Below, in pieces: positions 1,692 to 63,524 of a DNA stretch of 64,000 nucleotides. The notes below the pieces were generated by a model that was not told the origin of the DNA, did not search any database, and worked only from the letters and a program-made list of their open reading frames with translations. The position numbers and the translations under genes were made by a program. Position 1 is the stretch's first letter. Each line of letters starts with the position of its first letter. Source of the stretch: Candidatus Parcubacteria bacterium (lineage in GTDB: Bacteria; Patescibacteriota; Patescibacteriia; PEXW01). The stretch covers positions 44,880 through 108,879 of the forward strand of contig QZJU01000021.1 in NCBI GenBank assembly GCA_003597955.1, in the 5' to 3' direction.

Positions 1692-2978
1692 ATGCCTACC
1701 CACAAAACTCAAGATTTATTTGATCAAAGATTGGAAAAAGAATTCGGACGCCACGCGCCCTTGGCCGACCGGATGCGGCCGGAAAAACTGGAGGATTTTT
1801 TCGGCCAAACGGAGATAATCGGCCAGGGCAAGCTGTTGCGCCAAGCCATTGAAAACGACGAAATTTTTTCCATAATTTTCTGGGGGCCGCCGGGCAGCGG
1901 CAAAACCACTTTAGCCAGGATTATCGCCAAACTGACCAAGTCGCATTTTGAACAAATTTCGGCCGTAACTTCGGGCCTGGCGGATTTACGGGCGTTGGTC
2001 AAGCAGGCGCTGGAGAGGCGGAAGTTCCAGAATTTACGGACCATTCTTTTTGTGGATGAAATTCATCGCTGGAACAAAGCCCAGCAGGATTCATTTTTGC
2101 CTTATGTGGAAAACGGCACCATTACTTTAATAGGCGCCACCACAGAAAACCCGTCTTTTGAAGTGATTTCGCCGCTGCTTTCCCGCGCCCGGGTTTTTGT
2201 TTTGGAAAGGCTGGGCGTTCCGGAATTATCCAGAATTGTGAAGCGCGCTTTATTGGATAAAGAAAGAGGTTTGGGCAAGGAAAAAATTAAGCTTGAGGCC
2301 AAGGGCATAGATGTTTTATTGGCCGGATCAAACGGCGATGCCCGGACTTTATTAAATGCTCTGGAAATCGCGGTCAAAGCCACAGCCAAAGACGCAAAAG
2401 GCGTTAAACATATTAAAACCCAGACCGTGGAAGAAGCTTTGCAGCACAAAGCTTTAATGTTCGATAAAAAAGGCGAAGAGCATTACAATGTGATTTCGGC
2501 TTTCATTAAATCCATGCGCGGGTCAGATCCGGACGCGAGCTTGTATTGGTTGAATCGTTTGGTGGAGGCCGGGGAAGATCCGGAATTCATTGCCCGGCGC
2601 ATGGTGGTTTTTGCTTCGGAAGATGTGGGCTTGGCTGATCCAAATGCGCTTGCCGTGGCCGTGAATGTTTTTCAAGCCGTGAAGCTAATCGGCTATCCCG
2701 AATGCCAGATAAATTTGGCTCACGGCGTGGTTTACTTGGCATTAACTCCGAAAAACAACACGGCCTATATGGGCTTAATGAACGCCAAGCAAGACGTGAA
2801 AGATACTTTAAATGAGCCCGTGTCTTTGCATTTGCGCAACGCGGTCACGGATTTGATGAAAGATTTGGGCTATCACAAAGGTTATAAATACAGCCATGAT
2901 TATGATAAAGAGGAGGGTAAACAGGAATATTTGCCAAAGAAATTAGTAGGTCGGAAGTATTTTTTTCCAAAAAAATGA
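1692..2978 (+). CDS. rarA: Replication-associated recombination protein A (RarA/MgsA AAA+ ATPase).
   Basis: Walker A GPPGSGKTTLARIIA and the downstream RarA-specific regions are present. The ORF track start at 1653 is probably an N-terminal extension. Confidence 0.85.
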   Translation: MPTHKTQDLFDQRLEKEFGRHAPLADRMRPEKLEDFFGQTEIIGQGKLLRQAIENDEIFSIIFWGPPGSGKTTLARIIAKLTKSHFEQISAVTSGLADLRALVKQALERRKFQNLRTILFVDEIHRWNKAQQDSFLPYVENGTITLIGATTENPSFEVISPLLSRARVFVLERLGVPELSRIVKRALLDKERGLGKEKIKLEAKGIDVLLAGSNGDARTLLNALEIAVKATAKDAKGVKHIKTQTVEEALQHKALMFDKKGEEHYNVISAFIKSMRGSDPDASLYWLNRLVEAGEDPEFIARRMVVFASEDVGLADPNALAVAVNVFQAVKLIGYPECQINLAHGVVYLALTPKNNTAYMGLMNAKQDVKDTLNEPVSLHLRNAVTDLMKDLGYHKGYKYSHDYDKEEGKQEYLPKKLVGRKYFFPKK

Positions 2979-3523
2979 AATTGCCGCGGTTTAACGAAGC
3001 AGGTTATGCGCATTTTGTTACGTCTAAAACCTATAAAAGCCGAAAAGTTTTTGACAATAAAGAGTGTTGTGAAATTCTGGTTGAGGATTTGAACTTTTAT
3101 GCAAAGAAGTTAAATTTTGAAATTTTAGGTTATTGCGTGATGCCGGAACACCTTCATTTAATTGTGCAGTGGGATGCGGAGAAACATCCGAAATTAACAA
3201 TTTCGAAAATAATGCAAGCGATAAAAAACCATTCTGCAAAAGAAATCGCTTTTTATTTAAAAACGGGTAGGCGAAAGCCCTCGCTTTCGCCATATTCAAA
3301 AGACGCGAGCGAGGGCTCGCGTCTACCCGCGAACTATAAATGGCTTGATCGTGGTTTAGTCCATACTAATTCGCTTGTAAAAATCTGGCAAGCCTCATTC
3401 TACGACTTCAACATTTATTCGGAAAGAATTCTTAACCAAAAATACACCTACATTTATTACAACCCGGTCCGCGCGGGCTTGTGTGAAAAGCCCGAGGATT
3501 GGCCGTGGACTTCCATCAAATAA
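2975..3523 (+). CDS. IS200-like / REP-associated tyrosine transposase (RAYT) family HuH-Y1 protein.
   Basis: HuH motif VMPEHLHLIV and the C-terminal WQASFYDF...YIYYNPVRAGL signature of Y1 transposase-like proteins. It carries a 21-aa low-complexity insertion encoded by a palindromic DNA doublet. Confidence 0.75.
   Translation: MKLPRFNEAGYAHFVTSKTYKSRKVFDNKECCEILVEDLNFYAKKLNFEILGYCVMPEHLHLIVQWDAEKHPKLTISKIMQAIKNHSAKEIAFYLKTGRRKPSLSPYSKDASEGSRLPANYKWLDRGLVHTNSLVKIWQASFYDFNIYSERILNQKYTYIYYNPVRAGLCEKPEDWPWTSIK
3265..3328. repeat. REPIN-like palindromic doublet lying inside the RAYT-like ORF.
   Basis: GGGTAG-GCGAAAGC-CCTC-GCTTTCGC ... GACGCGAGC-GAGG-GCTCGCGTC-TACCC. These are two inverted hairpins with outer GTAG/CTAC arms, and the two hairpins are partly complementary to each other. 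Confidence 0.55.
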
Positions 3524-3524
3524 A

Positions 3525-3556
3525 AAACCAGTCCCATAAATGAGACTGGTTAATGA
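3525..3556. terminator. Bidirectional hairpin terminator.
   Basis: AACCAGTC-ccataaatga-GACTGGTT stem-loop, preceded by an A-run and placed between convergent genes. Confidence 0.45.
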
Positions 3557-25312: not shown

Positions 25313-25874
25313 AATTGGCCGCTCGCGTGCTGTACTCGCCGGTTTCGGTGTTAATGATGATTTTTTCCCCCGGCTTAATAAACAGCGGCACCTTTAATTC
25401 CAAGCCGTTTTCGAGTTTGGCAACTTTGGAGGCATTGGTGGCAGTATCGCCCTTCACCGCTTCAGGCGCTTCCACGACCTTGTATTCGATTTTTTTTGGC
25501 AATTGTATGGAAACCGGCCGGTTCTCAAAATTCAGCACATCAACTTCCAGCCCCTCTTTTAAATACCTGACCTGGTCGCCAAGCTGTTCAGCCAAAAGAA
25601 AGAATTGGTCGTATGAAGTTTGGTCCATGAAATAGTGTTCGTTGCCCTGAGCGTACAAATAGCTGGCGCGGTTGCGGGCCAGATCCGCTTCGGGAATTTT
25701 GTCGCCGGGTTTGAAAGTTAATTCCAAAATCCGGCCGGAAATCAGATTGCGCAGCTTGGTGCGCATAACTGGTTTGCGCATGGCCGTGCGCATGAAATCC
25801 GACCACACGACAATGTAGGGCTCATTTTCGTGAGTGATGGCCACGCCAATTCGAAGGTCATTCATAGTCAGCAT
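25311..25874 (-). CDS. efp: Elongation factor P.
   Basis: KPGKGxAF-like core and EF-P three-domain length. The tandem TACGAAT repeats directly abut the start codon. Confidence 0.88.
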   Translation of the reverse strand: MLTMNDLRIGVAITHENEPYIVVWSDFMRTAMRKPVMRTKLRNLISGRILELTFKPGDKIPEADLARNRASYLYAQGNEHYFMDQTSYDQFFLLAEQLGDQVRYLKEGLEVDVLNFENRPVSIQLPKKIEYKVVEAPEAVKGDTATNASKVAKLENGLELKVPLFIKPGEKIIINTETGEYSTRAAN

Positions 25875-26070
25875 ACGAAATACGAATTAGGATACGAATA
25901 TACGAATTACGAATAATGTACGCCACCGCCCCGCGGCCGCGGGGCGGGGTCCCGCCTTCTTACAAAAGTATATTAAAGTGGCGGGAAATATACGAAATAC
26001 GAATTGGGTTGCTGCGAGGGAATGTCAAAAATAGTATTCCTACATTCGGACCGATTCGTAATTTCGTAGT
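25875..26070. promoter_or_regulatory. Composite intergenic region: TACGAAT tandem repeats, a GC-rich palindrome, and an inverted TACGAAT pair.
   Basis: Five TACGAA(T) units at 25875-25915. Perfect palindrome CCGCCCCGCGG/CCGCGGGGCGG at 25927-25948. Two units at 25989-26003. Inverted ATTCGTAATTTCGTA at 26055-26069. Confidence 0.5.
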
Positions 26071-26071
26071 C

Positions 26072-26314
26072 TTATTTAGGCGTGTAAGGCTCGAGCGCCA
26101 TGAAACGCGCCCGCTTAACGGCCTCTGCCGTCAGGCGTTGATGCCGCATGCACAAACCCGTCCGCCGGCGAGGCAGGATTTTGAAATAGGAAGAAATGTA
26201 TTTTTGGTACACGCGCGTGTCTTTGTAATCCAAAGCCTTGACGCCCAGAACGCAAAAATTGCAGTGCGTGGGCGGAGCTTGGATTTGAGTCTTTTGCTTG
26301 TTTTTATTCAGCAT
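26072..26314 (-). CDS. rpsR: 30S ribosomal protein S18.
   Basis: DYKDTRVYQKYIS...ILPRRRTGLCMRHQRLTAEAVKRARFMALEPY matches the S18 signature. Confidence 0.85.
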   Translation of the reverse strand: MLNKNKQKTQIQAPPTHCNFCVLGVKALDYKDTRVYQKYISSYFKILPRRRTGLCMRHQRLTAEAVKRARFMALEPYTPK

Positions 26315-26331
26315 AAGCTAGCGGATGTTTT

Positions 26332-26757
26332 TTAAAAAGGAATATCCTCGACATTAATTTCGGGTTCTGCGGCGGCCGGCGCTTCTTGCGGCGCGGGCGC
26401 CTCTTCGCTGACTTTGTCAGCCGCGGGCTTTCGGTCCAACATAATGATGTTTTCCGCCACGATTTCGGTTCGATATTTTTTTTGGCCCGAGGGGTCATCC
26501 CAAGAACGGGTCTGCAGCCGGCCTTCCACAAAGATTTTTGCGCCCTTCTTTACATACTGGCTGACAATTTCTGCCAGTTTTCGCCAGGCCACGACGCTGT
26601 GAAATTCAACTTGTTCTTTTTTAGCGCCGCTGGGATCGGTCCAGGCACGATTGGTCGCCACGCTAAAGAGGGCCACGGTTTGGCCGCCGCTTGTGGTTCG
26701 GGAATCCGGATCGCGGGTCACATTGCCAATTATCATTGCTTTATTTAAGTTCATCAT
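26332..26757 (-). CDS. ssb: Single-stranded DNA-binding protein.
   Basis: OB-fold core and an acidic C-terminal tail ending in DIPF. Confidence 0.9.
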   Translation of the reverse strand: MMNLNKAMIIGNVTRDPDSRTTSGGQTVALFSVATNRAWTDPSGAKKEQVEFHSVVAWRKLAEIVSQYVKKGAKIFVEGRLQTRSWDDPSGQKKYRTEIVAENIIMLDRKPAADKVSEEAPAPQEAPAAAEPEINVEDIPF

Positions 26758-34944: not shown

Positions 34945-35502
34945 TTAAAGCAGCGCTTGCCAGCCTTTGGTTCTGACTAAATAGGCTGCTTTAGCCACCA
35001 GATAAGCCAAAAAAGGATCGTCTAGTTTGCCGGTTAGAGCAAGCTGTTCCGCTTTTTTAAGTGAGGTAGGAACAGGCCGAATATCTTCACCCGGATCGCC
35101 CGGAAGACGTGAAGGAATCAACCCACTGGCAATAAAGCCGAAGAGCGGCCAAGCGAAATGTTGGGGAGTTTGGTGAAATAGCCAAAGTTTTTTAGCTTTA
35201 AAACCCGCTTCTTCCCGGAGTTCTTTTTGTGCCGCGGCTTTGGCGGTGTGCCCTTTTTCAATTTTCCCGACAGGCAAATGCCAGACAAAACCCCGGCGCA
35301 TTTCTTTGTATTCCCGCGTCAGTATTAACCGGCGTTTGGCATCAAAAGCCAAAATCACAACCGTGGGTACGCGATGAACATATTCGAAAGTCATCTTTCG
35401 GCCGTCGGGCAGATGCGCCGGTACTTCTGTGATAGTGTAAATCCGGCCGTGGTATGCAATTCGGGGCTTGCCCAAGATTGTGTGTTTTCTTTTCATACCC
35501 AT
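34945..35502 (-). CDS. NUDIX hydrolase.
   Basis: Nudix box GKIEKGHTAKAAAQKELREEAGF. TACGAAT repeats abut the start codon. Confidence 0.8.
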   Translation of the reverse strand: MGMKRKHTILGKPRIAYHGRIYTITEVPAHLPDGRKMTFEYVHRVPTVVILAFDAKRRLILTREYKEMRRGFVWHLPVGKIEKGHTAKAAAQKELREEAGFKAKKLWLFHQTPQHFAWPLFGFIASGLIPSRLPGDPGEDIRPVPTSLKKAEQLALTGKLDDPFLAYLVAKAAYLVRTKGWQALL

Positions 35503-35545
35503 ACGAATTACGAATATAGTCTACGAAATACGAATAAGGGAATAG
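35501..35545. promoter_or_regulatory. TACGAAT tandem-repeat cluster (four units) plus an ATAAGGGAATA element.
   Basis: ATACGAATTACGAATATAGTCTACGAAATACGAATAAGGGAATAG lies immediately upstream of the NUDIX ATG. Confidence 0.5.
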
Positions 35546-45397: not shown

Positions 45398-45572
45398 TTT
45401 AGAACCCTGAAATGGGAGGATTATTACCGCTTTCCAGAAGTAGCGCTACAGCAAATGAAATCTTTATTGCAAATGTACCCTGCTCCAATTTCCTAATACT
45501 AGCTTAAAAGCGTTTAAAAATCAAGGGAAAAGTGGTAAAATAGAAGACAAGTAAAGATGTAACGAAGAAGTA

Positions 45573-46127
45573 ATGAAAAAAGAGCAAAATCATCCACAAA
45601 CTAGGGAGCGTATCGCACGGTTGTTGATAGACAAGGGGTTTTTAGAAATGCTGGAAAAAGGGCGTACAAAAAAGAATGAGGAGTTAGATAAGTGGATTTG
45701 TGAGATACGAAAAAACTTCAATCTTTCAAAGTATTATCACAGAGTGTTGCAGACAATAATTTCTATTCCTGACATTCAATATCAAAAGTTCTTAGCTGGC
45801 ACAGCGTGTATCATCGCATTACCTGATGAGTGTCGTAAGAAAAATTATTTTGCAATAGAAGTATTCCCTGAAACATCAGAAAAAGACGTGGTAAGAGCAT
45901 TTTCGGCAATACGCAAGAAATATCACGAATCAGATGAAATACCAAAACGGCTTCGAACCTCACCAAGTTTTTCCAAACAACAGTATGCCTTACAGAGGAG
46001 CGAAGATGGAGCAACGTATAAGAAAATTGCAGAAGAATTGAAGCAAATGGGTTATTCTACGACCTATTTTGAGGTTTCAGATTTAATAAGAAAAATCAAA
46101 AACAAGGCTAAGTCGGTTTCTGGTTGA
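45573..46127 (+). CDS. Hypothetical protein (element cargo) with a possible C-terminal HTH.
   Basis: ORF of 184 aa. The C-terminal ATYKKIAEELKQMGYSTTYFEVSDLIRKIK resembles a sigma-70 region-4-like HTH. Confidence 0.45.
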   Translation: MKKEQNHPQTRERIARLLIDKGFLEMLEKGRTKKNEELDKWICEIRKNFNLSKYYHRVLQTIISIPDIQYQKFLAGTACIIALPDECRKKNYFAIEVFPETSEKDVVRAFSAIRKKYHESDEIPKRLRTSPSFSKQQYALQRSEDGATYKKIAEELKQMGYSTTYFEVSDLIRKIKNKAKSVSG

Positions 46128-46351
46128 TAACGATATAGTTATCGGCCTTATACGTGATTTTGATAGGTAGATAGACTGTGGGTAGAAAGCTCACAGTCTT
46201 ATGAAACTAAGTAGCCAAAAATTATCTGAATTAAAGCAAATCATACAGGATGATTTTGGTGTCAAGCTTGATGACCAATTCGTTTTTGTTATTGGCAGTG
46301 AACTTATTGCACTATTTGACCATTTGTACTCTTACGATTTTCAACAAAAAA

Positions 46352-46645
46352 ATGAGCAACCTAACGAGCGTAACTGAAATATCAATCACGCCTATTAGAC
46401 CACGAGATGGTCTTACCGCTTTTGCCTCTTTTGTCCTTGACGATAAGTATTTCGTTGCAGGCGTAGCAATTTTTACAAAATTGAGCGGTGGCTTCCGCTT
46501 GGTTTTCCCGACCCGCAAAATTGGTCAAACCAATCTCAATTTGTTTAATCCAATCAAGCGTGAAGTTGGCGAGATAATTGAGAGAAAAGTTAGTGAAGAA
46601 TTAACAAAACTGTATGATAGACAACTTACGGAATATAAAACTTAG
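46352..46645 (+). CDS. SpoVG-like protein.
   Basis: ITPIRPRDGLTAFASFVLDDKYFVAGVAIFTKLSGGFRLVFPTRK matches the SpoVG fold signature. The start is placed at MSNLTSV. Confidence 0.6.
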   Translation: MSNLTSVTEISITPIRPRDGLTAFASFVLDDKYFVAGVAIFTKLSGGFRLVFPTRKIGQTNLNLFNPIKREVGEIIERKVSEELTKLYDRQLTEYKT

Positions 46646-46679
46646 AGTCCCTAAATGTTGGCAGGATAAAAGGATAATG

Positions 46680-47033
46680 CGTTTTTTGAGAAAACATTAT
46701 TCGGGGAAAAAACGTACAACCGCCATAGCAATTTATGTAACTCTAAGCGAGATGGCAAGTAATGCTAATTCAGAAACCTTTAAGTCCTATTACAGTCAAA
46801 TTGGTGAGATGGCTGGTAAATCATCATCAACCATCAAGCGTTATTGCAATGATTTTATCAAGCTGACTATTTTAGAAAAAAAGAATCATAAGAAGGGGAA
46901 GCACAACTTAGCTAATCAGTGGTCGTTACTAGCATACTCTCCAATGAGATTACAGTCGGGTCGTAATAATGACCTGACCCCTAATAAAATTAGTCTCAAC
47001 CAAGGCCAAAATAATAACCCCGACTCCATTTAA
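46680..47033 (+). CDS. Hypothetical, possibly a winged-helix DNA-binding protein (element cargo).
   Basis: The start is placed at MRFLRK. The ORF track start at 46614 overlaps the preceding gene. Confidence 0.4.
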   Translation, partial: RFLRKHYSGKKRTTAIAIYVTLSEMASNANSETFKSYYSQIGEMAGKSSSTIKRYCNDFIKLTILEKKNHKKGKHNLANQWSLLAYSPMRLQSGRNNDLTPNKISLNQGQNNNPDSI

Positions 47034-47132
47034 TATACTGACCACATCTCTACTTACCTAATGACCCACTAATAGAATATATTACTTAGAATTATTTACT
47101 AAGAAGGATACCCCCCATAAGCTAATCCTTAT

Positions 47133-47501
47133 ATGAAGTGTCAATTTACAAAACAAGACGGCCAACAATGTGAGGGAAATGCAATATATGATAGCCAGTA
47201 TTGTTTTTCGCATAACCCTGACAGTCGGCAGGCAAAGAATGAGGCAGTCTTAAACGGCGGGCTTGCCCTCAAAAAAATAAAGTTTGAATTAGAAGAAGTC
47301 GAAATAAAATCTATTCAGGACATCACTGCACTTTTGGCCAAAACAATAAATGAACTTAGGACTAACAAAATCCCACCCAAAATCGCCGTTAATATAGGTT
47401 ATTTATCAAACATCATGATTACATCTCTTAAGGAGGGTGAGATTGAAAAAAGATTGGAGGTGATAGAAAATGCAATCAAACTACATAAGTCGAATGAATA
47501 A
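47133..47501 (+). CDS. Hypothetical protein with an N-terminal Cys4 cluster (element cargo).
   Basis: CQFTKQDGQQCEGNAIYDSQYCFSH. Confidence 0.45.
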   Translation: MKCQFTKQDGQQCEGNAIYDSQYCFSHNPDSRQAKNEAVLNGGLALKKIKFELEEVEIKSIQDITALLAKTINELRTNKIPPKIAVNIGYLSNIMITSLKEGEIEKRLEVIENAIKLHKSNE

Positions 47502-48051
47502 AATTATTTCCGAAATGGATTTACCAGCGATGGATGAGCATTTTTTCAATAGTGGAGGTTTAAGTTTTTTAAATGGGCTACCAAAAGGCAAAGTGACGTC
47601 GTTACTTTTGTATGGGACATACCAATCCTCAAGGTTTTATCTTGTCACGGTAGCGTTTAATAAAATTAAACTCTTGACGTATATCAGCGAGCTGATTGCA
47701 GAAGAGTTTGAAAACCTAATTTTGTTATCATACCTCTTTAGTGTTTCAGGCGATGAGAAAACTGTGAGGATGAGAAAATTATTCTCTGATAAGAACCCCG
47801 ATGACACACTAAAGCAAATCTCCCAGTTAGTAGAGAGGCAATCGGTTTTACTAGAGGAATTATCGAAGTTGAAACCACTAATAAAGGAAAACCACAACAC
47901 ACCTTATGTTAGCGAGCAATTTGACGGCTGCAACTTGAAGGATTTGGAAAATAAAATCCTTAATGAGTCATTTTCAGTTGGTTTGGAGACAGCCAATTTA
48001 ATAGCAAAAAAACTCTTAATTTCGTTGACAAATAGCCTATATGAGGCATAA
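47470..48051 (+). CDS. Hypothetical protein (element cargo).
   Basis: ORF overlapping the previous gene by 32 nt (translationally coupled). Confidence 0.45.
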   Translation: MQSNYISRMNKIISEMDLPAMDEHFFNSGGLSFLNGLPKGKVTSLLLYGTYQSSRFYLVTVAFNKIKLLTYISELIAEEFENLILLSYLFSVSGDEKTVRMRKLFSDKNPDDTLKQISQLVERQSVLLEELSKLKPLIKENHNTPYVSEQFDGCNLKDLENKILNESFSVGLETANLIAKKLLISLTNSLYEA

Positions 48052-48215
48052 TTAAGGCACAATCTAAATAGCGGTGACACGCATTCAAGCCCCCGTAAGG
48101 GTGGGTCGAAGCGTGTCACCGCATTAAGCCCATACCTGCGGGGGCTTCAATTTCCAGACAAATATGCAGGTCATTAACAGTCAATTCTTTAAGAAAATAA
48201 TTAACCAAAAGAAGT

Positions 48216-48815
48216 ATGGACAACCAACCTTCTCAAGAGCAAAAACCAAAAAGTAAGTTAAAAAGATTGGGTAAAAGAGTTTTAGCCGTAATAGTTGGGC
48301 TAGTGGCTTTGTTTGTCATTCTGATAATTGTTGCAGTTGCCACAGATAACAAAAATAGTAATAGTAACAGTGCTGGTAGTGAAAATAATAACGCAAGCAG
48401 CGTGGAGATGACCTATGAGAGTAAACTTGAAAAAGCAATCACTGATGAGATTGGCGCAAAAAATAATATGGATAAACCAAAAGTCAGGAGCGTTAAGGTG
48501 ATGAATCCTAATGAAACGTTGGTTGAAATCAACGGCGACGAGAACCTGACAAGTGGGATGACTAAAAAAGGAATTGATAAGGACATCCTCAACACGTTCA
48601 AGGCTATATTCGCCACTGATACAAACCCCAATCTCCTTGCGTCTGTTGATGTTTATTTCCCGACAGTGGACAAATACGGCAATGAATCCGATAACCGTGT
48701 TATCCGTGCTCTCCTTAAACGGGAAACTGCTAACAAGATACAGTGGGATAATATCTTGTTAGAAAATATCCCAGCCGTGTTCGATGATTACGATGAGTAT
48801 GTAAAGTTTGAGTAA
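48216..48815 (+). CDS. Membrane-anchored hypothetical protein (element cargo).
   Basis: N-terminal TM helix followed by a Ser/Asn-rich linker. Confidence 0.45.
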   Translation: MDNQPSQEQKPKSKLKRLGKRVLAVIVGLVALFVILIIVAVATDNKNSNSNSAGSENNNASSVEMTYESKLEKAITDEIGAKNNMDKPKVRSVKVMNPNETLVEINGDENLTSGMTKKGIDKDILNTFKAIFATDTNPNLLASVDVYFPTVDKYGNESDNRVIRALLKRETANKIQWDNILLENIPAVFDDYDEYVKFE

Positions 48816-48817
48816 CC

Positions 48818-50401
48818 ATGAATGCCGTCCTATTCGCCAGAGTGTCCAGTAAAGAGCAGGAGGAGTCAGGGTACTCCCTCCCCGCTCAAGAAAAACTCCT
48901 TAAAGAATACAGCGAGAGGAAAAGTTTTAGCATTGCTAAGATATTTTCCATTTCAGAGTCAGCAACTGGCAAAAAGCAACGGGAGACATTCAACGAGATG
49001 ATTGAGTATGTGACCAAAGGCAATATCAAGCACATCATCTGCGAGAAAGCCGACAGGCTGACCCGAAACTTCAAGGATATGGTGATGATTGATGACTGGC
49101 TGGGTAAGGACGCAGAACGGCAGGTGCACCTTGTTAAAGACTCTCTCGTCTTGCACCAAAACTCCCGCTCCCAAGAAAAGCTTAACTGGGGTATCCGTGT
49201 GCTGTTCGCAAAAAATTACGTTGATAATCTGGCCGAGGAGGTCAAGAAAGGCAAGCGTGAAAAAGTAGCGCAAGGATGGTATCCGACACGGCCACCTTTA
49301 GGGTATATTTCCGTGGGTGAAAGAAGCCACAGGATTTGCGTACCTGACGAACATAAAGCCCCTCTTATCAGGAAAATGTTTGAGTGGTACGCAACAGGCA
49401 ATTACTCCCTAAAGAAGGTGGTGGAAATGATGTATGAAACGGGCTTAAGGACAATCCACAATACCAAGGTACAAAAAAGTCGGCTTCACCAGATTTTGTC
49501 TGACCCCTTTTACTGCGGAAAAATTGTCTGGAAGGGTGAAGAATATCAGGGGAAACAAGAAAAAATCGTGTCAGAGGAGTTGTTTCAGCAAGTCCAAGCA
49601 ATCCTTAAGCAAAAAACGACCCCGCACTACCGCAAACACCTCTCGCTGTTTAAGGGGTTAATCAGGTGCAGTGAATGTGGCGGGTTAATCACTTGGGAAA
49701 CGCACAAAGGGCATTGGTACGGTCACTGCAACCATTACCGTAACTGCTCCAAAAAGGAGTATGTGAGGCAAGAAAAACTTGAGGAACAACTACTCAACCA
49801 ATTTGTAGCTATAGCGCCTAAAAGCGATAGGTTGGTCAAATGGATACAGGAAGCGCTCAAGGAAAGCCACGCAGACGAGATTACGTTCAATACCCAAGCC
49901 CGTGATGAGCTTAACCGTCGCTATGAACACGCCCAGAAGCGCCTAGAAGTCCTCTACGACGACAAAATTGACGGTAAGATAACTACGGAGTTCTACGAGG
50001 CCAAGTTCAAACAGTACAGCGCAGAGCAGAAGGCTGTTTTGAAATCACTTAATGACCACGATGACGCCAAGTCCAAGTATTACGAGCTTGGTGTTAATGT
50101 GCTCGAGCTGGCTCATAGGGCAAAAGAAATCTACGAGCACCCCAAAATGCTGGTTGAGCAGAGACGGACGCTACTTAACCATATTTTTTCGAACCTGCGC
50201 TTAAATGGCGATAGATTAGAGGTTTCTTACACGCCAGTAGTTGAGGTTTTAGCGCAATTGACTCCCGCCCTCAATAAAACTTTCGAACTCCAGAAAAGTA
50301 CCGCAAACACAACACTAACCCTTCAAAGTATGAACGGTTCTAGTGTTTGGTGCCGGAGAGAGGACTTGAACCTCCAAGGGCTTGCGCCCACACGGCTCTG
50401 A
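48818..50401 (+). CDS. Large serine recombinase (resolvase/invertase N-domain, recombinase domain and zinc ribbon).
   Basis: Catalytic Ser region AVLFARVSSKEQ, a recombinase domain, and a CSECGG...HCNHYRNC zinc ribbon. The last ~17 codons are encoded by tRNA-Leu sequence. Confidence 0.8.
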   Translation: MNAVLFARVSSKEQEESGYSLPAQEKLLKEYSERKSFSIAKIFSISESATGKKQRETFNEMIEYVTKGNIKHIICEKADRLTRNFKDMVMIDDWLGKDAERQVHLVKDSLVLHQNSRSQEKLNWGIRVLFAKNYVDNLAEEVKKGKREKVAQGWYPTRPPLGYISVGERSHRICVPDEHKAPLIRKMFEWYATGNYSLKKVVEMMYETGLRTIHNTKVQKSRLHQILSDPFYCGKIVWKGEEYQGKQEKIVSEELFQQVQAILKQKTTPHYRKHLSLFKGLIRCSECGGLITWETHKGHWYGHCNHYRNCSKKEYVRQEKLEEQLLNQFVAIAPKSDRLVKWIQEALKESHADEITFNTQARDELNRRYEHAQKRLEVLYDDKIDGKITTEFYEAKFKQYSAEQKAVLKSLNDHDDAKSKYYELGVNVLELAHRAKEIYEHPKMLVEQRRTLLNHIFSNLRLNGDRLEVSYTPVVEVLAQLTPALNKTFELQKSTANTTLTLQSMNGSSVWCRREDLNLQGLAPTRL

Positions 50402-50434
50402 ACCGTGCGTGTATACCAGTTTCACCACTCCGGC
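50348..50434 (-). tRNA. tRNA-Leu (anticodon CAG), long variable arm, 3' CCA encoded.
   Basis: The cloverleaf folds by eye. Acceptor GCCGGAG/CTCCGGC, anticodon loop UUCAGAG, T-arm GGAGG-TTCAAGT-CCTCT, then ACCA. Confidence 0.8.
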
Positions 50435-52640: not shown

Positions 52641-52835
52641 AATATTTTTATGAATGCGAAATTCAGACTACAATTTTCAGGGTTTTTTGTCAACCCCTTT
52701 TGGTTTTCTTTCTTTTGGCGTGAAGCTTGAGAATCTGAAAAACCCTTTTGCCATGCACGGCCATCCTAGGTTTTCGCTTTTTGTCACGGCGCTTAGTTTT
52801 TAATTCCAGGCGTTTGATGGTGTCAGTCATAATTC

Positions 52836-52890
52836 TACGAATTACGAATAAAGTACGAATTTACGAATTAGAGATAAGGGTATACGAATT
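52836..52890. promoter_or_regulatory. TACGAAT tandem-repeat cluster (five units) plus an ATAAGGGTATA element.
   Basis: TACGAATTACGAATAAAGTACGAATTTACGAATTAGAGATAAGGGTATACGAATT lies between the uvrC stop and the secG start. Confidence 0.5.
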
Positions 52891-52902: not shown

Positions 52903-54762
52903 TCAGAGATTCTCCAGGAGTTTTTCGGTTAATTTCGGACCTACCGCATTTGTCAGTTCTTTTTCGGAAGCCTGGCGGATCTTTTTTACTGAACCGAAAC
53001 GACTTAATAATAATTTTTTGTGCTTTGGGCCCAGACCATGGATTTCGTCCAAAGCTGATTCAACAGCGGCCTTTTGGTGTTTGCGTCGGAAACCGGCAAT
53101 GGAAAAACGGTGGGCCTCGTCGCGGATCCTTTCAATTAAAAACAAACCATCCGAGGGATTTGGCAATTTTACCGGCGGTCTGCCAGGCAAGAAGATTTTT
53201 TCGCGATCCGCTTGTTGGGGCAGGTTTTGGTGGCCGCCTTTGGCGATGGCTACGATTGGAACAGAAAATTTATTTCCGAGTTTTTGTTTGACAATGTTAA
53301 GCTGACCCAGGCCGCCGTCAAGAATAATTAAGTCGGGTAGAGGCAAGTGGGAAGACTTGGGATTAGGAACCAAGAACTTTGAACCGCGCCCTCCTGGTTT
53401 ATTGTCTGCTGTCCCTCGTTCTTGGTTTGCGTGCGTGAAGCGTCTCGCAAGCATTTCTGCTAGCATGGCCGGGTCATTGGCGACGGTAACGGTTTTAATA
53501 TTAAACCGGCGGTAAAACTTTTTTTCTGGCCTGCCATTAACGAAAACCACCATGCTGCCGCTCGAATGCTGGCCCATGAGGTTAGCCACATCAAAAGCCT
53601 CGATTCTTTTTGGCGGGTTCGGCAGCCTTAAAGCATCGCTTAATTCCTTTAGGCCTTTCCTAAGACGCAAATCATCTTTTTCAAAACTGGCTTTTTGCTG
53701 CCGCAGGAATTCGGCCGCGTTCAAATTACTGACCGCAAGCAGTTTTTTCAGCCGGCCTCTTTGCGGAACCAAGATTTTTGCGTTTAAGATGCTTTTCAAG
53801 ACTTTGGAGACCTTCAGCATAAAAGGCAGAATGAGTTTCTTGGGTAAATCCGTGGCTTGGGCGTAAAATTGTTCGATAAAACTGATTAAAATCCCGTTGG
53901 GGTTTTCATTCTTAATATGTTGCAAAAGTACGGTTTGTTTATCCAGCAGTTTGCCGGCGCGAATGACCAAGCGATTGACCGCAGCCAAGCTGCCCGAAAC
54001 CGCATAGCCGATAATGTCCAAATTTTGTTCCTGACCTAAGATGACATTTTGTCTTTGCATCAGCCGGCTTATGGCATGCAAGCGATCGCGTAGCAAGGCG
54101 GCGCGTTCAAACTGTTTTTGCTCGCTGGCTTTGCGCATTTTTTCGGTCAGGTCTTTTTCGATTACTCGGCTGTCGCCGCTAAGGAATTTGGTTAAGCCGT
54201 TGATGATTTCGCGGTAATTTTTCTGGCTTTGCTCATCCACGCCGTGGCCCAGACAGCGGTTTAAATGAAATTCAAAACAGGGTTTTTCCGGCGGGTTGGC
54301 GCAATTTTTGTAGGGGAAGATTTTTTTCAACAACCTTAAAGTTTCGTAAACTGCTGCCGATGAAACAAAAGGGCCAAAGTATCGAGAGCCGTCTTTGGCC
54401 AGACGGCGGACCGCGCTGACTGAAGGGTAAGTCTCGGCTAGCGCAATTTTTATGTATAGGAAATTCTTATCGTCTCGCATGACAATGTTGTAGGGTGGGT
54501 GGAATTTTTTAATCAGGGTGGTTTCCAACAGCAGGGCTTCCAATTCACTGGCTGTCACAATGGTTTCGATTTTGGCGATTTTGGCAACCATGTTTTTCTT
54601 GGCCGCCGAAAGTTGGGTATTTTTATTAAAATACGAACTGACCCGCGATTTTAATTTTATGGCCTTGCCTACATACAAAATTTCCCCGGTTTGGGAAAAG
54701 AATTGATAAACCCCGGGTTTTTTAGGCAGCACGGAAATTTGGTTTTTTAGACTAGGATTCAT
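52903..54762 (-). CDS. uvrC: Excinuclease ABC subunit C.
   Basis: N-terminal GIY-YIG (GVYQFF...ILYVGKA), UvrC middle domain, and C-terminal RNase H-like and HhH domains. Confidence 0.92.
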   Translation of the reverse strand: MNPSLKNQISVLPKKPGVYQFFSQTGEILYVGKAIKLKSRVSSYFNKNTQLSAAKKNMVAKIAKIETIVTASELEALLLETTLIKKFHPPYNIVMRDDKNFLYIKIALAETYPSVSAVRRLAKDGSRYFGPFVSSAAVYETLRLLKKIFPYKNCANPPEKPCFEFHLNRCLGHGVDEQSQKNYREIINGLTKFLSGDSRVIEKDLTEKMRKASEQKQFERAALLRDRLHAISRLMQRQNVILGQEQNLDIIGYAVSGSLAAVNRLVIRAGKLLDKQTVLLQHIKNENPNGILISFIEQFYAQATDLPKKLILPFMLKVSKVLKSILNAKILVPQRGRLKKLLAVSNLNAAEFLRQQKASFEKDDLRLRKGLKELSDALRLPNPPKRIEAFDVANLMGQHSSGSMVVFVNGRPEKKFYRRFNIKTVTVANDPAMLAEMLARRFTHANQERGTADNKPGGRGSKFLVPNPKSSHLPLPDLIILDGGLGQLNIVKQKLGNKFSVPIVAIAKGGHQNLPQQADREKIFLPGRPPVKLPNPSDGLFLIERIRDEAHRFSIAGFRRKHQKAAVESALDEIHGLGPKHKKLLLSRFGSVKKIRQASEKELTNAVGPKLTEKLLENL

Positions 54763-54793
54763 GGCAGCTAAAGTATATCAAGGATGATAGAAC

Positions 54794-54808
54794 TACGAAT
54801 TACGAATA
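54794..54808. promoter_or_regulatory. TACGAAT tandem pair in the divergent uvrC-uvrA intergenic region.
   Basis: CTACGAATTACGAATAC lies about 30 nt upstream of the uvrC ATG. Confidence 0.45.
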
Positions 54809-60621: not shown

Positions 60622-60648
60622 TTAGCACTCTTTAATTGAAAGTGCTAA
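60622..60648 (+). promoter_or_regulatory. CIRCE (HrcA operator).
   Basis: TTAGCACTC-N9-AAGTGCTAA, one mismatch to the consensus TTAGCACTC-N9-GAGTGCTAA. Confidence 0.8.
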
Positions 60649-63481: not shown

Positions 63482-63524
63482 CCCCGTACCACCCTGTACC
63501 ATTTCGGTGCAGGGTGGTACGGGG
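63482..63524. repeat. Perfect 15-bp-stem palindrome (GTACC family).
   Basis: CCCCGTACCACCCTG-taccatttcggtg-CAGGGTGGTACGGGG. Confidence 0.6.

What the first reader, a model, noticed from the sequence alone, without database searches (positions are those of the whole stretch)
25875..26070. Tandem TACGAAT heptamer clusters recur at five intergenic sites, always oriented toward - strand genes
Two to five tandem TACGAA(T) units with a 7-8 nt period occur at 25875-25915, 35501-35536, 52836-52890, 54794-54808 and 25989-26003, with an inverted pair at 26055-26069. Each cluster is oriented so the downstream gene's sense strand reads ATTCGTA. Two clusters run directly into the start codon (efp, NUDIX: ...ATTCGTATG). 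Two clusters share an adjacent ATAAGGG(A/T)ATA element. A lone heptamer is expected by chance a handful of times in 64 kb on two strands; clusters of four or five in 40 nt are not. This looks like a shared promoter or operator architecture, that is, a regulon or non-canonical promoter, linking efp, a NUDIX gene, secG and the divergent uvrC/uvrA pair. I do not know it as a described bacterial motif.
Basis: seen in the sequence. Interest (0 to 1): 0.8.

Follow-up and report, generated by a model that had tools for sequence, protein, structure and literature searches.

The report
Dispersed heptamer repeats before gene starts
The TACGAAT clusters are real: they belong to a family of short repeated DNA elements that sit just in front of a few genes in some candidate-phyla-radiation bacteria and in many phage contigs, which makes them a new example of a known but poorly understood kind of repeat, not a demonstrated promoter or regulon.

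Summary
TACGAAT occurs 24 times against 6.6 expected. Same-strand units 7-8 nt apart occur 10 times against 0.02 expected. Six arrays lie in four non-coding spacers, and the sense strand of the downstream gene always reads ATTCGTA. The genome is a Patescibacteria (Kerfeldbacteria-like) MAG.

The arrays are copies of one composite element: an ATTCCC flank, pairs of (A/T)TTCGTA units, and either a degenerate middle unit or an inserted GC-rich double hairpin. The element ends 0-13 nt before an ATG that has no Shine-Dalgarno sequence. Only 4 of about 20 related genomes carry it, on three separate branches, and the nearest relatives lack it. Carriers have it partly at the same genes (efp, a 46-aa basic protein) and partly at others (ssb, folD, groES, csrA).

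The same heptad forms multi-site intergenic arrays in diverse viral contigs, two of them cyanobacterial in type; a composition-matched control heptad does not. No sigma-70 promoter lies in three of the four window spacers, and in one relative the arrays lie inside the groES 5' UTR.

Best reading: a dispersed, probably mobile, transcribed repeat family like the STRR and Xanthomonas heptamer repeats, acting in cis on SD-less translation starts. A heptad-register binding protein (a true regulon) remains a serious rival.

The parts
25874..25914 (-). efp-proximal array. The sense strand reads ATTCGTA ATTCGTA T ATTCGTA TCCTA ATTCGTA TTTCGT-ATG. The last unit shares its A with the efp start codon, and there is no Shine-Dalgarno sequence.
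25921..25987 (-). GC-rich double hairpin (TTCCCGCC...GGCGGGA, then CCGCCCCGC-GGCC-GCGGGGCGG) inserted between two diheptads. Its left junction, TTCGTATATTTCCCGCCAC, is shared with L008 and L263.
25991..26004 (-). Distal diheptad (sense strand ATTCGTA TTTCGTA). ATTCCC lies 14 nt upstream of it and overlaps an orphan TTGACA by one base.
26054..26068 (+). Inverted diheptad immediately after the rpsR stop codon (26072-26074). The efp-sense strand reads TACGAAA T TACGAAT. In the RNA fold it pairs with the AUG-proximal units.
35502..35535 (-). NUDIX array. The sense strand reads ATTCGTA TTTCGTA GACTAT ATTCGTA ATTCGT-ATG. It lies in the glyA-NUDIX spacer, and the last unit shares its A with the start codon.
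35538..35543 (-). The same flank occurs at arrays in L007 and L258 and at the distal efp array.
52836..52889 (-). Array of 5 units that fills the spacer between uvrC and the 46-aa gene and ends 5 nt before the ATG at 52830.
52690..52830 (-). Gene for a 46-aa basic protein (MTDTIKRLELKTKRRDKKRKPRMAVHGKRVFQILKLHAKRKKTKRG). This is the gene actually served by the 52.8-kb array. It is conserved downstream of uvrC in relatives.
54794..54807 (-). Diheptad 16 nt upstream of the uvrC extended -10 box, so it occupies the -35 region of a leaderless-type promoter.
54772..54777 (-). uvrC -10 box TATACT (TGATATACT), 9 nt before the ATG. TATACT 6-9 nt before the uvrC ATG is conserved in most relatives sampled (absent in L004/L255, L005 and L008).
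2975..3523 (+). REP-associated tyrosine transposase (RAYT, Y1 HUH) gene. It is a candidate mobiliser of the hairpin insert or the repeat family, but the link is unproven.

Best explanation
The heptads are copies of a dispersed intergenic repeat element. They are not a promoter, and they are not a demonstrated transcription-factor regulon.

Anatomy (shown): one element consists of a 5' flank (ATTCCC-YY), pairs of (A/T)TTCGTA units, and a middle part that is either a degenerate unit (TAT(T/C)CGTATC..) or an inserted GC-rich double hairpin. It ends with a final perfect diheptad 0-13 nt before the ATG of a gene that lacks a Shine-Dalgarno sequence.

Class (shown by resemblance): it is the same kind of object as the dispersed tandem heptanucleotide repeats of cyanobacteria (STRR) and Xanthomonas (GGGAATC).

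Spread (inferred): the family spreads like a REP/MITE-type mobile or expansion-prone repeat. It is patchy among close relatives, sits at non-orthologous genes, has near-identical copies at different genes, and also occurs in many viral contigs. The genome encodes a REP-associated tyrosine transposase that could move at least the hairpin part.

Transcription: arrays lie inside the 5' UTR of L258 groES, as shown by the positions of the promoter and CIRCE. For the window's three co-directional spacers transcription is inferred, because they have no promoter of their own.

Effect in cis (inferred): the array replaces the ribosome-binding region with AU-rich, weakly structured sequence that has no start codon or Shine-Dalgarno sequence and has UAA stops in all three frames. 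Where an inverted copy lies upstream, as in the window's rpsR-efp spacer and at L258 groES, the two copies form a long stem that buries the region just 5' of the AUG.
For: - The arrays are real, specific and non-coding.
- The elements share a higher-order anatomy and an ATTCCC flank: 4 of about 9 array starts have it, against 0.01 expected per site.
- The hairpin-bearing version is about 90% identical between L008 (in front of the 46-aa gene) and L263 (in front of folD), and the window's efp copy shares its 34-nt left junction.
- Only L007, L008, L258 and L263 among about 20 sampled relatives carry arrays. They fall on three separate branches of the UvrC tree, and the nearest relatives lack arrays.
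- There is no sigma-70 promoter or canonical terminator in the efp, NUDIX or 46-aa-gene spacers.
- In L258 groES the order is TTGACA-N16-TACAAT, then CIRCE, then the inverted arrays, then the ATG. The arrays are therefore transcribed.
- Predicted folding is strong: z = -5.4 for the L258 groES leader and z = -4.2 for the window's rpsR-efp spacer.
- In spacers longer than 70 nt the arrays lie at the ATG-proximal end.
- The same heptad forms arrays at 3 or more separate sites in 8 of 120 viral contigs, against 0 of 120 for a composition-matched control heptad. L028 and L062 each carry 14 HIP1 sites, which marks them as cyanobacterial in type.
- A RAYT gene is present in the window: NF047646, 113 bits against a cut-off of 80.
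- The published Xanthomonas and Nostoc heptamer families have the same habits. They have one unit, number about 186 sites, include many inverted pairs, lie mostly 0-50 bp from ORFs and are mostly transcribed; their function is unknown (PMC4692102).
Against: - Array-bearing genomes separated by array-less lineages have the element at the same genes: efp in 2 of 2, and the 46-aa gene in 3 of 4. This is easier to explain by selection or a regulon than by random insertion.
- The unit is identical in very distant lineages, which suggests a sequence-specific reader.
- No mobilisation mechanism has been shown. The RAYT gene is not flanked by heptads or by the TCCCGCC hairpin, and heptads are not palindromes as REPs are.
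- Two arrays lie upstream of promoters (window uvrC, L258 csrA), where an RNA-level effect cannot operate.
- The 'inert leader' properties are shared by 40 of 192 heptamer classes with the same AT content, so they do not explain why this heptad was chosen.
- Only about 76 kb of this genome could be examined.
Confidence: 0.42

Rival explanations
1. The arrays are binding platforms for a multimeric protein that reads a 7-nt register. On DNA it would work like the omega ribbon-helix-helix repressor on heptad operators. On RNA it would work like HutP or TRAP on periodic leader motifs. Bound protein would repress, or tune, translation or transcription of efp, NUDIX, the 46-aa protein gene, uvrC and the rest. 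That would make this a true regulon whose factor is present only in array-bearing lineages and their phages.
For: - The unit and core TTCGTA are strictly conserved across genomes whose UvrC is only 61-63% identical.
- The diheptad is the basic module, and modules repeat about 19-27 nt apart.
- Both direct and inverted arrangements occur.
- The element recurs at efp and at the 46-aa gene in independent array-bearing genomes.
- Arrays abut or overlap the start codon or the -35 region.
- The patchy distribution would fit gain and loss of the factor.
- Some phage contigs carry an array in nearly every intergenic gap, like mycobacteriophage stoperators (the comparison is from my own knowledge).
Against: - No candidate binding protein (RHH, HutP-like or other) was found in the window, and none is shared among array-rich viral contigs.
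- Steps of 8 and 11-14 nt break a strict 7-bp register.
- The gene set has no functional theme, and most arrays are not shared between array-bearing genomes.
- Sense orientation is ATTCGTA in the CPR genomes but TACGAAT in several phage contigs, which argues against a single RNA-level reader.
- One conserved protein serving CPR bacteria, cyanobacterial-type contigs and phage contigs with extreme GC skew is hard to picture.
Confidence: 0.3
2. The arrays are neutral simple-sequence repeats generated locally by replication slippage. They have no mobility and no function, and they are tolerated only in non-coding DNA next to genes that do not depend on a Shine-Dalgarno sequence.
For: - Heptameric SSRs are known to be over-represented in the intergenic DNA of some bacteria (PMC4692102).
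- Unit number and interruptions differ between genomes at the same gene.
- TACGAAT lies on the G-rich strand in the window, in L007, L008 and L258, and in 6 of 7 viral lineages with clear skew. This would fit orientation-dependent slippage.
Against: - Local slippage does not explain why one heptad is used at every site and in unrelated lineages.
- It does not explain the shared ATTCCC flank, the AC-NN-T pre-flank or the conserved middle unit.
- It does not explain the near-identical composite at different genes.
- The arrays are unchanged in a 98.7%-identical strain (the only spacer difference is one SNP in the hairpin), so they are not hypervariable.
Confidence: 0.12
3. The arrays are a non-canonical promoter or an UP-like element recognised by RNA polymerase, possibly with an alternative sigma factor.
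For: - At uvrC, TTCGTA sits 16 nt upstream of TATACT, which is the -35 position.
- TATATT follows the first diheptad in 5 of 14 arrays.
- In L258 an array ends 9 nt upstream of a -35 box.
Against: - There is no fixed distance to any -10 box, -35 box or ATG.
- Perfect arrays contain no TANNNT hexamer on either strand.
- The promoter scan finds none in three of the four spacers.
- In L258 groES the arrays lie downstream of a near-consensus promoter and CIRCE.
- Other genes in the window use ordinary TTGACA/TATAAT-like promoters.
Confidence: 0.05

Closest known systems
Dispersed intergenic tandem heptanucleotide repeats: cyanobacterial STRR (Calothrix/Nostoc), Xanthomonas GGGAATC and Nostoc GGGGA(C/T)T families (PMC4692102)
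   Same: - The unit is 7 nt, and one unit sequence is reused at many separate intergenic sites.
- Arrays have 2 to many units, with interruptions.
- Both single arrays and convergent inverted pairs occur.
- Most lie within 0-50 bp of ORF ends, and they are largely transcribed.
- Array length differs between relatives.
- The function is unknown.
- Two of the viral contigs that carry TACGAAT arrays are cyanobacterial in type, being rich in HIP1 sites.
   Different: - The unit is AT-rich (TACGAAT) and cannot form G-quadruplexes.
- The arrays are short (2-7 units) and organised as diheptads with a conserved flank and a middle unit.
- They abut SD-less start codons.
- The hosts are Patescibacteria and uncultivated phages.
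- The genome-wide number of copies is unknown.
REP/REPIN elements with their RAYT transposase, and other tiny mobile repeats (MITEs, Nostoc small dispersed repeats, which I recall insert into heptamer arrays)
   Same: - The repeats are extragenic and often lie between cistrons.
- Their distribution among relatives is patchy.
- GC-rich hairpins are present.
- A RAYT gene is present in the window.
- A hairpin module is inserted at the same point of a heptad array at three different genes.
   Different: - The heptads themselves are direct repeats, not palindromes.
- The RAYT gene is not flanked by them.
- No transposition footprint or target duplication could be defined.
- Orientation follows the downstream gene in the CPR genomes.
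Omega (ribbon-helix-helix) repressor operators of inc18 plasmids: arrays of 7-bp heptads WATCACW in direct or inverted orientation (from my own knowledge)
   Same: - The period is 7 bp.
- Two adjacent heptads form the minimal module.
- Both direct and inverted arrangements occur.
- The arrays sit in front of genes.
   Different: - The heptad sequence is different.
- The register is often broken.
- Most arrays are not at promoters.
- No RHH gene was found.
- The sites are chromosomal and spread over housekeeping genes.
HutP and TRAP periodic RNA operators (from my own knowledge)
   Same: - Short motifs recur with a fixed period (7 nt for HutP) in two groups within a leader.
- The groups lie next to a hairpin or next to the start codon.
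   Different: - The motif is not NAG or GAG.
- No cognate protein is known.
- Two arrays lie outside transcripts.
- Orientation differs between lineages.
Mycobacteriophage start-associated sequences and stoperators (from my own knowledge)
   Same: Short asymmetric repeats sit in many short intergenic gaps, just upstream of start codons, in one orientation within a given genome.
   Different: - Those are single 13-bp sites, not tandem heptads.
- They are confined to one phage cluster.

Membership tests
Dispersed intergenic heptanucleotide repeat families (STRR / Xanthomonas-type) | Head-to-tail repeats of a 7-nt unit, with at least 2 units | tested here: met
   Tandem Repeats Finder reports period 7, and units are mostly 7-8 nt apart. 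There are 10 adjacent pairs against 0.02 expected.
Dispersed intergenic heptanucleotide repeat families (STRR / Xanthomonas-type) | The same unit is reused at many separate sites in one genome | tested here: met
   Six arrays lie in four spacers within 64 kb, and this is the top repeat family in the window. The genome-wide count could not be obtained.
Dispersed intergenic heptanucleotide repeat families (STRR / Xanthomonas-type) | Non-coding location, mostly within 0-50 bp of ORF ends | tested here: met
   All arrays are non-coding in a window that is 91% coding. In 8 of 10 ATG-proximal cases the array ends 0-13 nt before the ATG.
Dispersed intergenic heptanucleotide repeat families (STRR / Xanthomonas-type) | Occurs as single arrays and as convergent inverted pairs | tested here: met
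   Examples are 26054-26068 against 25991-26004 and 25874-25914 in the window, L258 groES, and many viral contigs.
REP/REPIN-RAYT system | A RAYT (Y1 HUH transposase) gene in the genome | tested here: met
   Window 2975-3523 matches NF047646 at 113.4 bits (cut-off 80) and Pfam Y1_Tnp.
REP/REPIN-RAYT system | The repeat unit is an imperfect palindrome (hairpin) with a conserved flanking tetranucleotide | tested here: not met
   The heptads are direct repeats. Only the inserted TCCCGCC/GGCGGGA hairpins are palindromic.
REP/REPIN-RAYT system | The RAYT gene is flanked by its own repeats | tested here: not met
   No heptad array and no TCCCGCC hairpin lies next to 2975-3523. There is only an unrelated terminator-like hairpin at 3528-3549.
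Omega-type heptad operators (RHH repressor) | Contiguous 7-bp heptads, direct or inverted, with at least 2 required | tested here: inconclusive
   Diheptads are contiguous, but steps of 8 and 11-14 nt interrupt the register.
Omega-type heptad operators (RHH repressor) | Arrays overlap the promoters of the regulated genes | tested here: not met
   No promoter lies in the efp, NUDIX or 46-aa-gene spacers. Only the uvrC pair overlaps a -35 region.
Omega-type heptad operators (RHH repressor) | A cognate RHH protein is encoded by the same replicon | tested here: inconclusive
   None was found among the window proteins that were scanned. The rest of the genome was not available.
Sigma-70-type promoter | -35 and -10 hexamers 16-18 nt apart, at a fixed distance from the transcription start | tested here: not met
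   The promoter scans were negative. Perfect arrays hold no TANNNT on either strand. The position relative to known promoters varies.
HutP/TRAP-type periodic RNA operator | A periodic motif lies inside a transcribed leader, next to a terminator hairpin or the start codon | tested here: inconclusive
   The feature holds for L258 groES, where the arrays are inside the 5' UTR. It is plausible for three window spacers. It does not hold for window uvrC or L258 csrA, where the arrays lie upstream of the promoters.
HutP/TRAP-type periodic RNA operator | A cognate ring-shaped RNA-binding protein | not testable with these tools
   This needs complete genomes and phylogenetic profiling. No candidate was found in the window.
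LexA/SOS box (Patescibacteria) | The motif lies upstream of lexA, recA and other SOS genes and matches the published box | not tested
   The paper (Sanchez-Osuna et al. 2017) is not held in the library. In the window, recA and uvrA have no array upstream, and efp and NUDIX are not SOS genes.
Fur-family Zur box (TCGTAAT-N-ATTACGA, recalled from memory) | A 7-1-7 inverted repeat in front of zinc-homeostasis genes | tested here: not met
   The tandem units do contain TCGTAAT, but in the CPR genomes they are direct repeats. No 7-1-7 arrangement occurs and no metal-related genes are involved.

The most novel reading that the evidence does not exclude
The arrays are operators of a previously unknown post-transcriptional or transcriptional control system. 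In it, a multimeric protein reads UUCGUA/TTCGTA in a 7-nt register directly at the start codons of SD-less genes such as efp, ssb, folD, groES and a conserved 46-aa basic protein. The system would be shared, and exchanged, between candidate-phyla-radiation bacteria, cyanobacteria-type hosts and their phages.
Probability: 0.18. Interest if true: 0.8.

Novelty: new member of a known kind. Interest (0 to 1): 0.48.

Why it matters
- Almost nothing is known about how Patescibacteria control gene expression. An element that abuts the start codons of core genes (efp, ssb, folD, groES) is a concrete handle on SD-independent initiation in these organisms.
- Dispersed heptamer repeats have been known since 1990, yet their function is still open. 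This family offers new test material: it is AT-rich, so G-quadruplex explanations are excluded. It has a defined flank and an internal insertion point. It co-occurs with a RAYT gene. It is shared between bacteria and phage contigs.
- If a reader protein exists, this would be a new kind of regulon. If none exists, it is a clean case of a tiny repeat family colonising translation-start regions and moving across very distant hosts.

Tried and rejected
- Rfam, whole window at gathering thresholds: no match.
- LexA/SOS box: the key paper is not held. recA and uvrA lack arrays, and the gene set is not an SOS set.
- Zur/Fur box: the half-site resembles the heptad, but the arrangement and the genes are wrong.
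- Spo0A-like or ECF-type -10 (CGTA): no matching -35 element was found, and the geometry is inconsistent.
- Alternative Shine-Dalgarno or rRNA complementarity: other genes in the window use canonical GGAGG. The only complementary 16S segments I could recall are base-paired in the ribosome. I did not pursue this further.
- 'Inert AT-rich spacer' as the reason for this particular heptad: 40 of 192 comparable heptamer classes share the properties.
- A protein shared by array-rich viral contigs: an all-against-all BLAST found only a roughly 545-aa protein (annotated as a portal or terminase by my guess only) in one subgroup.
- Known phage relatives of L117 and L133: none.
- The hairpin junction 17-mer in viral contigs: four hits, all in coding sequence without arrays, which I take to be chance.
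- Strain comparison for constraint: L002 is 98.7% identical overall and has one SNP in the 203-nt spacer, which is uninformative.
- Extending the same genome by about 12 kb beyond the window: no further arrays.
- A metagenome scan with UvrC gave only 8 loci.
Full report
**Observation**

The arrays, in + strand coordinates, are:
- 25874-25914, 5 units
- 25991-26004, 2 units
- 26054-26068, 2 units, opposite orientation
- 35502-35535, 4 units
- 52836-52889, 5 units
- 54794-54807, 2 units

TACGAAT occurs 24 times against 6.6 +/- 2.4 in dinucleotide-preserving shuffles. Same-strand hexamers 7-8 nt apart occur 10 times against 0.02 in Markov simulations. Tandem Repeats Finder reports only one other period-7 row, a weak CAAAAAG run of about 3 copies. 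The diheptad is the largest direct-repeat family in the window. All arrays lie in four non-coding spacers, although the window is 91% coding.

**Gene context**

Pfam identifies rpsF-ssb-rpsR followed by efp, and glyA followed by a NUDIX gene. It also identifies uvrC, uvrA, secG and csrA.

Two corrections to the finding are needed:
- The gene served by the 52.8-kb array is a conserved 46-aa basic protein gene (52690-52830), not secG. secG follows with its own TTGACA-N17-TAGTCT promoter.
- The 54.8-kb pair belongs to uvrC. It lies 16 nt upstream of TGATATACT, a leaderless-type extended -10 box. TATACT 6-9 nt before the uvrC ATG is conserved in most relatives.

The sense strand of every downstream gene reads ATTCGTA. 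At efp and at NUDIX the final A of the last heptad is the A of the ATG, and none of these genes has a Shine-Dalgarno sequence. Other genes in the window use GGAGG and ordinary sigma-70 promoters.

**Organism**

The window is identical to part of MAG GCA_020061045.1. Its UvrC relatives are Patescibacteria, labelled Candidatus Kerfeldbacteria. GC skew is positive along the whole window, so TACGAAT lies on the G-rich strand, presumably the leading strand, and the array-bearing genes are on the other strand.

**Anatomy of the element**

When all copies are laid side by side in sense orientation, a common plan appears:
- a 5' flank ATTCCC-YY, present at 4 of about 9 array starts against 0.01 expected per site;
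- a diheptad;
- a middle part;
- a final diheptad, usually the perfect ATTCGTAATTCGTA, preceded in the window by AC-NN-T;
- then 0-13 nt to the ATG.

The middle part is either a degenerate unit (TATTCGTATCCTA, TATCCGTATCTTT or CCTTCGTATACCT) or a GC-rich double hairpin inserted between TAT and CGTA. The hairpin version is about 90% identical between L008, in front of the 46-aa gene, and L263, in front of folD. The window's efp copy shares its first 34 nt. The heptads are therefore parts of a composite dispersed repeat, not isolated boxes.

**Relatives**

About 20 distinct related genomes were sampled, through UvrC and through EF-P homologues. Arrays occur in four of them:
- L007 and L008, in front of the 46-aa gene;
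- L258, at groES and csrA;
- L263, at efp, ssb and folD.

L266 has a degenerate TTTGTAATTCGTA three nt before the NUDIX ATG. On a UvrC neighbour-joining tree the array-bearing genomes sit on three separate branches. The nearest relatives of the window lack arrays: L010/L257 and L012/L260 (71-72% UvrC identity) and L262 (85% EF-P identity).

On the other hand, among array-bearing genomes efp carries an array in 2 of 2 and the 46-aa gene in 3 of 4. That recurrence is hard to get from random insertion, and it keeps a functional or regulatory reading alive.

**Position relative to promoters**

The promoter and terminator scan finds no sigma-70-like promoter and no canonical terminator on the gene strand in the efp, NUDIX and 46-aa-gene spacers. 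These arrays are therefore most likely transcribed as intercistronic RNA; this is an inference.

In L258 the order is TTGACA-N16-TACAAT, then CIRCE, then 5 TACGAAA-type units, then 36 nt, then 5 TTCGTA units, then ATACTT-ATG of groES. There the arrays lie inside the 5' UTR, and the leader is predicted to fold into a long stem ending just before the AUG (z = -5.4). The window's rpsR-efp spacer folds similarly: the inverted pair behind the rpsR stop pairs with the AUG-proximal units (z = -4.2).

Other arrays lie outside transcripts. One ends 9 nt upstream of the -35 box of L258 csrA, and one lies over the -35 region of window uvrC. A core-promoter role is thus excluded. A purely RNA-level role cannot cover all copies.

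**Beyond this clade**

Of those contigs, 18 carry arrays at 2 or more separate sites and 8 carry them at 3 or more. The contigs span GC 0.38-0.65, and the arrays are direct or inverted, lie between a stop codon and the next start, and often sit next to GC hairpins. A composition-matched control heptad (ATTGCTA) gave 8 and 0 respectively.

Two of the array-rich contigs have 14 HIP1 octamers each, which marks them as cyanobacterial in type. The contigs share almost no proteins and have no close cultured phage relatives.

Sense orientation is not universal. It is TACGAAT followed by an SD in L133, L092 and L054, and ATTCGTA without an SD in L108, L089 and L087. TACGAAT lies on the G-rich strand in 6 of 7 viral lineages with clear skew and in all the CPR loci. 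In the CPR loci this is confounded with conserved synteny, so I treat it as suggestive only.

**Comparison with the literature**

No paper in the library prints the diheptad. PMC4692102 describes strikingly similar families. Xanthomonas has GGGAATC at 186 sites, 70 of them in convergent inverted pairs. Most lie 0-50 bp from ORFs, most are transcribed, and 83% are kept in the same context between two species although their lengths differ. Nostoc has GGGGA(C/T)T. That paper states that heptameric SSRs are over-represented in bacterial intergenic DNA, cites the three Calothrix heptanucleotides, and leaves the function open. The present family fits that kind. It is new in its unit, its hosts, its abutment on start codons and its internal insertion point.

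**A possible mobiliser**

Window 2975-3523 encodes a REP-associated tyrosine transposase (NF047646, 113 bits against a cut-off of 80; Pfam Y1_Tnp; HUH motif HLH and a C-terminal YYNPVRAGL). RAYTs spread REP hairpins. The GC hairpin inserted into heptad arrays at three different genes is the obvious candidate substrate. On the TACGAAT strand every unit junction reads TTAC, which I recall as the IS608 target; this is a lead, not a test. The RAYT gene is not flanked by heptads or by that hairpin, so membership in a REP-RAYT system is not established for the heptads.

**Weighing the explanations**

For a dispersed, mobile or expansion-prone repeat with only generic cis effects:
- the distribution is patchy;
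- copies sit at non-orthologous sites;
- the composites are near-identical;
- the position relative to promoters varies;
- the gene set has no theme;
- the same heptad occurs in unrelated hosts and phages;
- a RAYT gene is present;
- the published heptamer families are a close parallel.

For a specific reader protein (a regulon):
- the core TTCGTA is invariant across deep divergence;
- the diheptad grammar is regular;
- the element recurs at efp and at the 46-aa gene;
- the arrays lie tightly against the start codon.

I put 0.42 on the first, 0.30 on the second, 0.12 on neutral slippage alone and 0.05 on a promoter. The proposed cis effect is an AU-rich, SD-free leader with no start codon, UAA stops in all three frames, and occlusion of the AUG region where an inverted copy is present. 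This follows from the sequence and from predicted folds only. The 'inert' properties do not single out this heptad.

**Verdict**

The regulon or promoter interpretation is only partly supported. The thing itself is a new member of the known but unexplained class of dispersed intergenic heptamer repeats. Its unusual features are that it abuts start codons and that it is shared between CPR bacteria and phage contigs. Interest is moderate.

Noticed in passing
window 2975-3523 (+): This is a REP-associated tyrosine transposase (RAYT) gene: NF047646 at 113 bits and Pfam Y1_Tnp. It overlaps the 3' end of a rarA/mgsA-like ATPase gene by 4 nt. It appears to be single-copy, with no IS ends and no heptads beside it.
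   Followed up: partly
window 45500-50434: This is a low-GC island (about 0.40, against 0.47 for the window). It holds unknown small ORFs, a weak SpoVG-like gene (46250-46645) and a large serine recombinase (48818-50401) abutting tRNA-Leu(CAG) at 50348-50434. It is probably an integrated element. The GCA/JGI assembly breaks inside the recombinase gene, at about window 49824-49888.
   Followed up: partly
window 52690-52830 (-) and L003-L012, L255-L260: A 46-aa, very basic protein with no Pfam or NCBIfam match lies downstream of uvrC (usually directly) throughout this Patescibacteria clade. The JGI gene call for this stretch instead places a 49-aa ORF on the opposite strand.
   Followed up: partly
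window 54760-54783 and the uvrC starts of most relatives sampled: uvrC has a conserved TATACT, often as TGnTATACT, only 6-9 nt before its ATG. This implies a leaderless or near-leaderless uvrC mRNA in these bacteria.
   Followed up: partly
viral contigs L054, L089, L092, L108, L133: These phage contigs have extreme strand asymmetry, with GC skew of +0.35 to +0.46. In L133, L092 and L054 the coding strand is the G-rich one. In L108 and L089 it is the C-rich one. All of them carry TACGAAT-type arrays on the G-rich strand, and some also carry variant units (TACGAAG, TAGGAAT).
   Followed up: partly
L004 6730-6800, L006 about 1850-1900, L007 11930-11975, L008 8345-8390, L258 6350-6400: A second repeat family occurs in the relatives. 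These are C/T-rich hairpins of the type CCCCTCTCTCGCCCTTCGGGCACTCTCCCCCCAAGGTGGGAGAG, in intergenic DNA and often just upstream of the heptad arrays.
   Followed up: no
L258 11850-11900, L266 3055-3105, L256 2680-2720: A third repeat family, REP-like, occurs in relatives: GCGCGGGC..GCCCGCGC AGGC..GCCTGCGC double hairpins downstream of uvrC or upstream of NUDIX.
   Followed up: no
window 60622-60648: A CIRCE element (TTAGCACTC-N9-AAGTGCTAA, one mismatch) lies upstream of groES/groEL. In L258 a heptad-array pair has been placed between CIRCE and the groES ATG.
   Followed up: partly
window 63482-63524: A 43-nt near-perfect palindrome (CCCCGTACCACCCTG-N13-CAGGGTGGTACGGGG) lies between two divergent unknown genes. 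Each gene has a TTGACA-type promoter next to it.
   Followed up: no
window 26005-26034 (- strand): An orphan TTGACATTCCC lies upstream of the distal efp diheptad. If the 12-nt ATTCGTATTTCG is removed, the result is TTGACA-N18-TATATT. L258 has the same TTGACATTCCC as the -35 region of a working-looking csrA promoter. The heptads may have split an older promoter.
   Followed up: no
window 25916-26335 (+): A 139-aa ORF starts inside the array and overlaps rpsR on the opposite strand. The NCBI/JGI annotation calls this ORF and omits rpsR. Pfam supports rpsR (26072-26314, - strand), so the call is probably spurious.
   Followed up: partly
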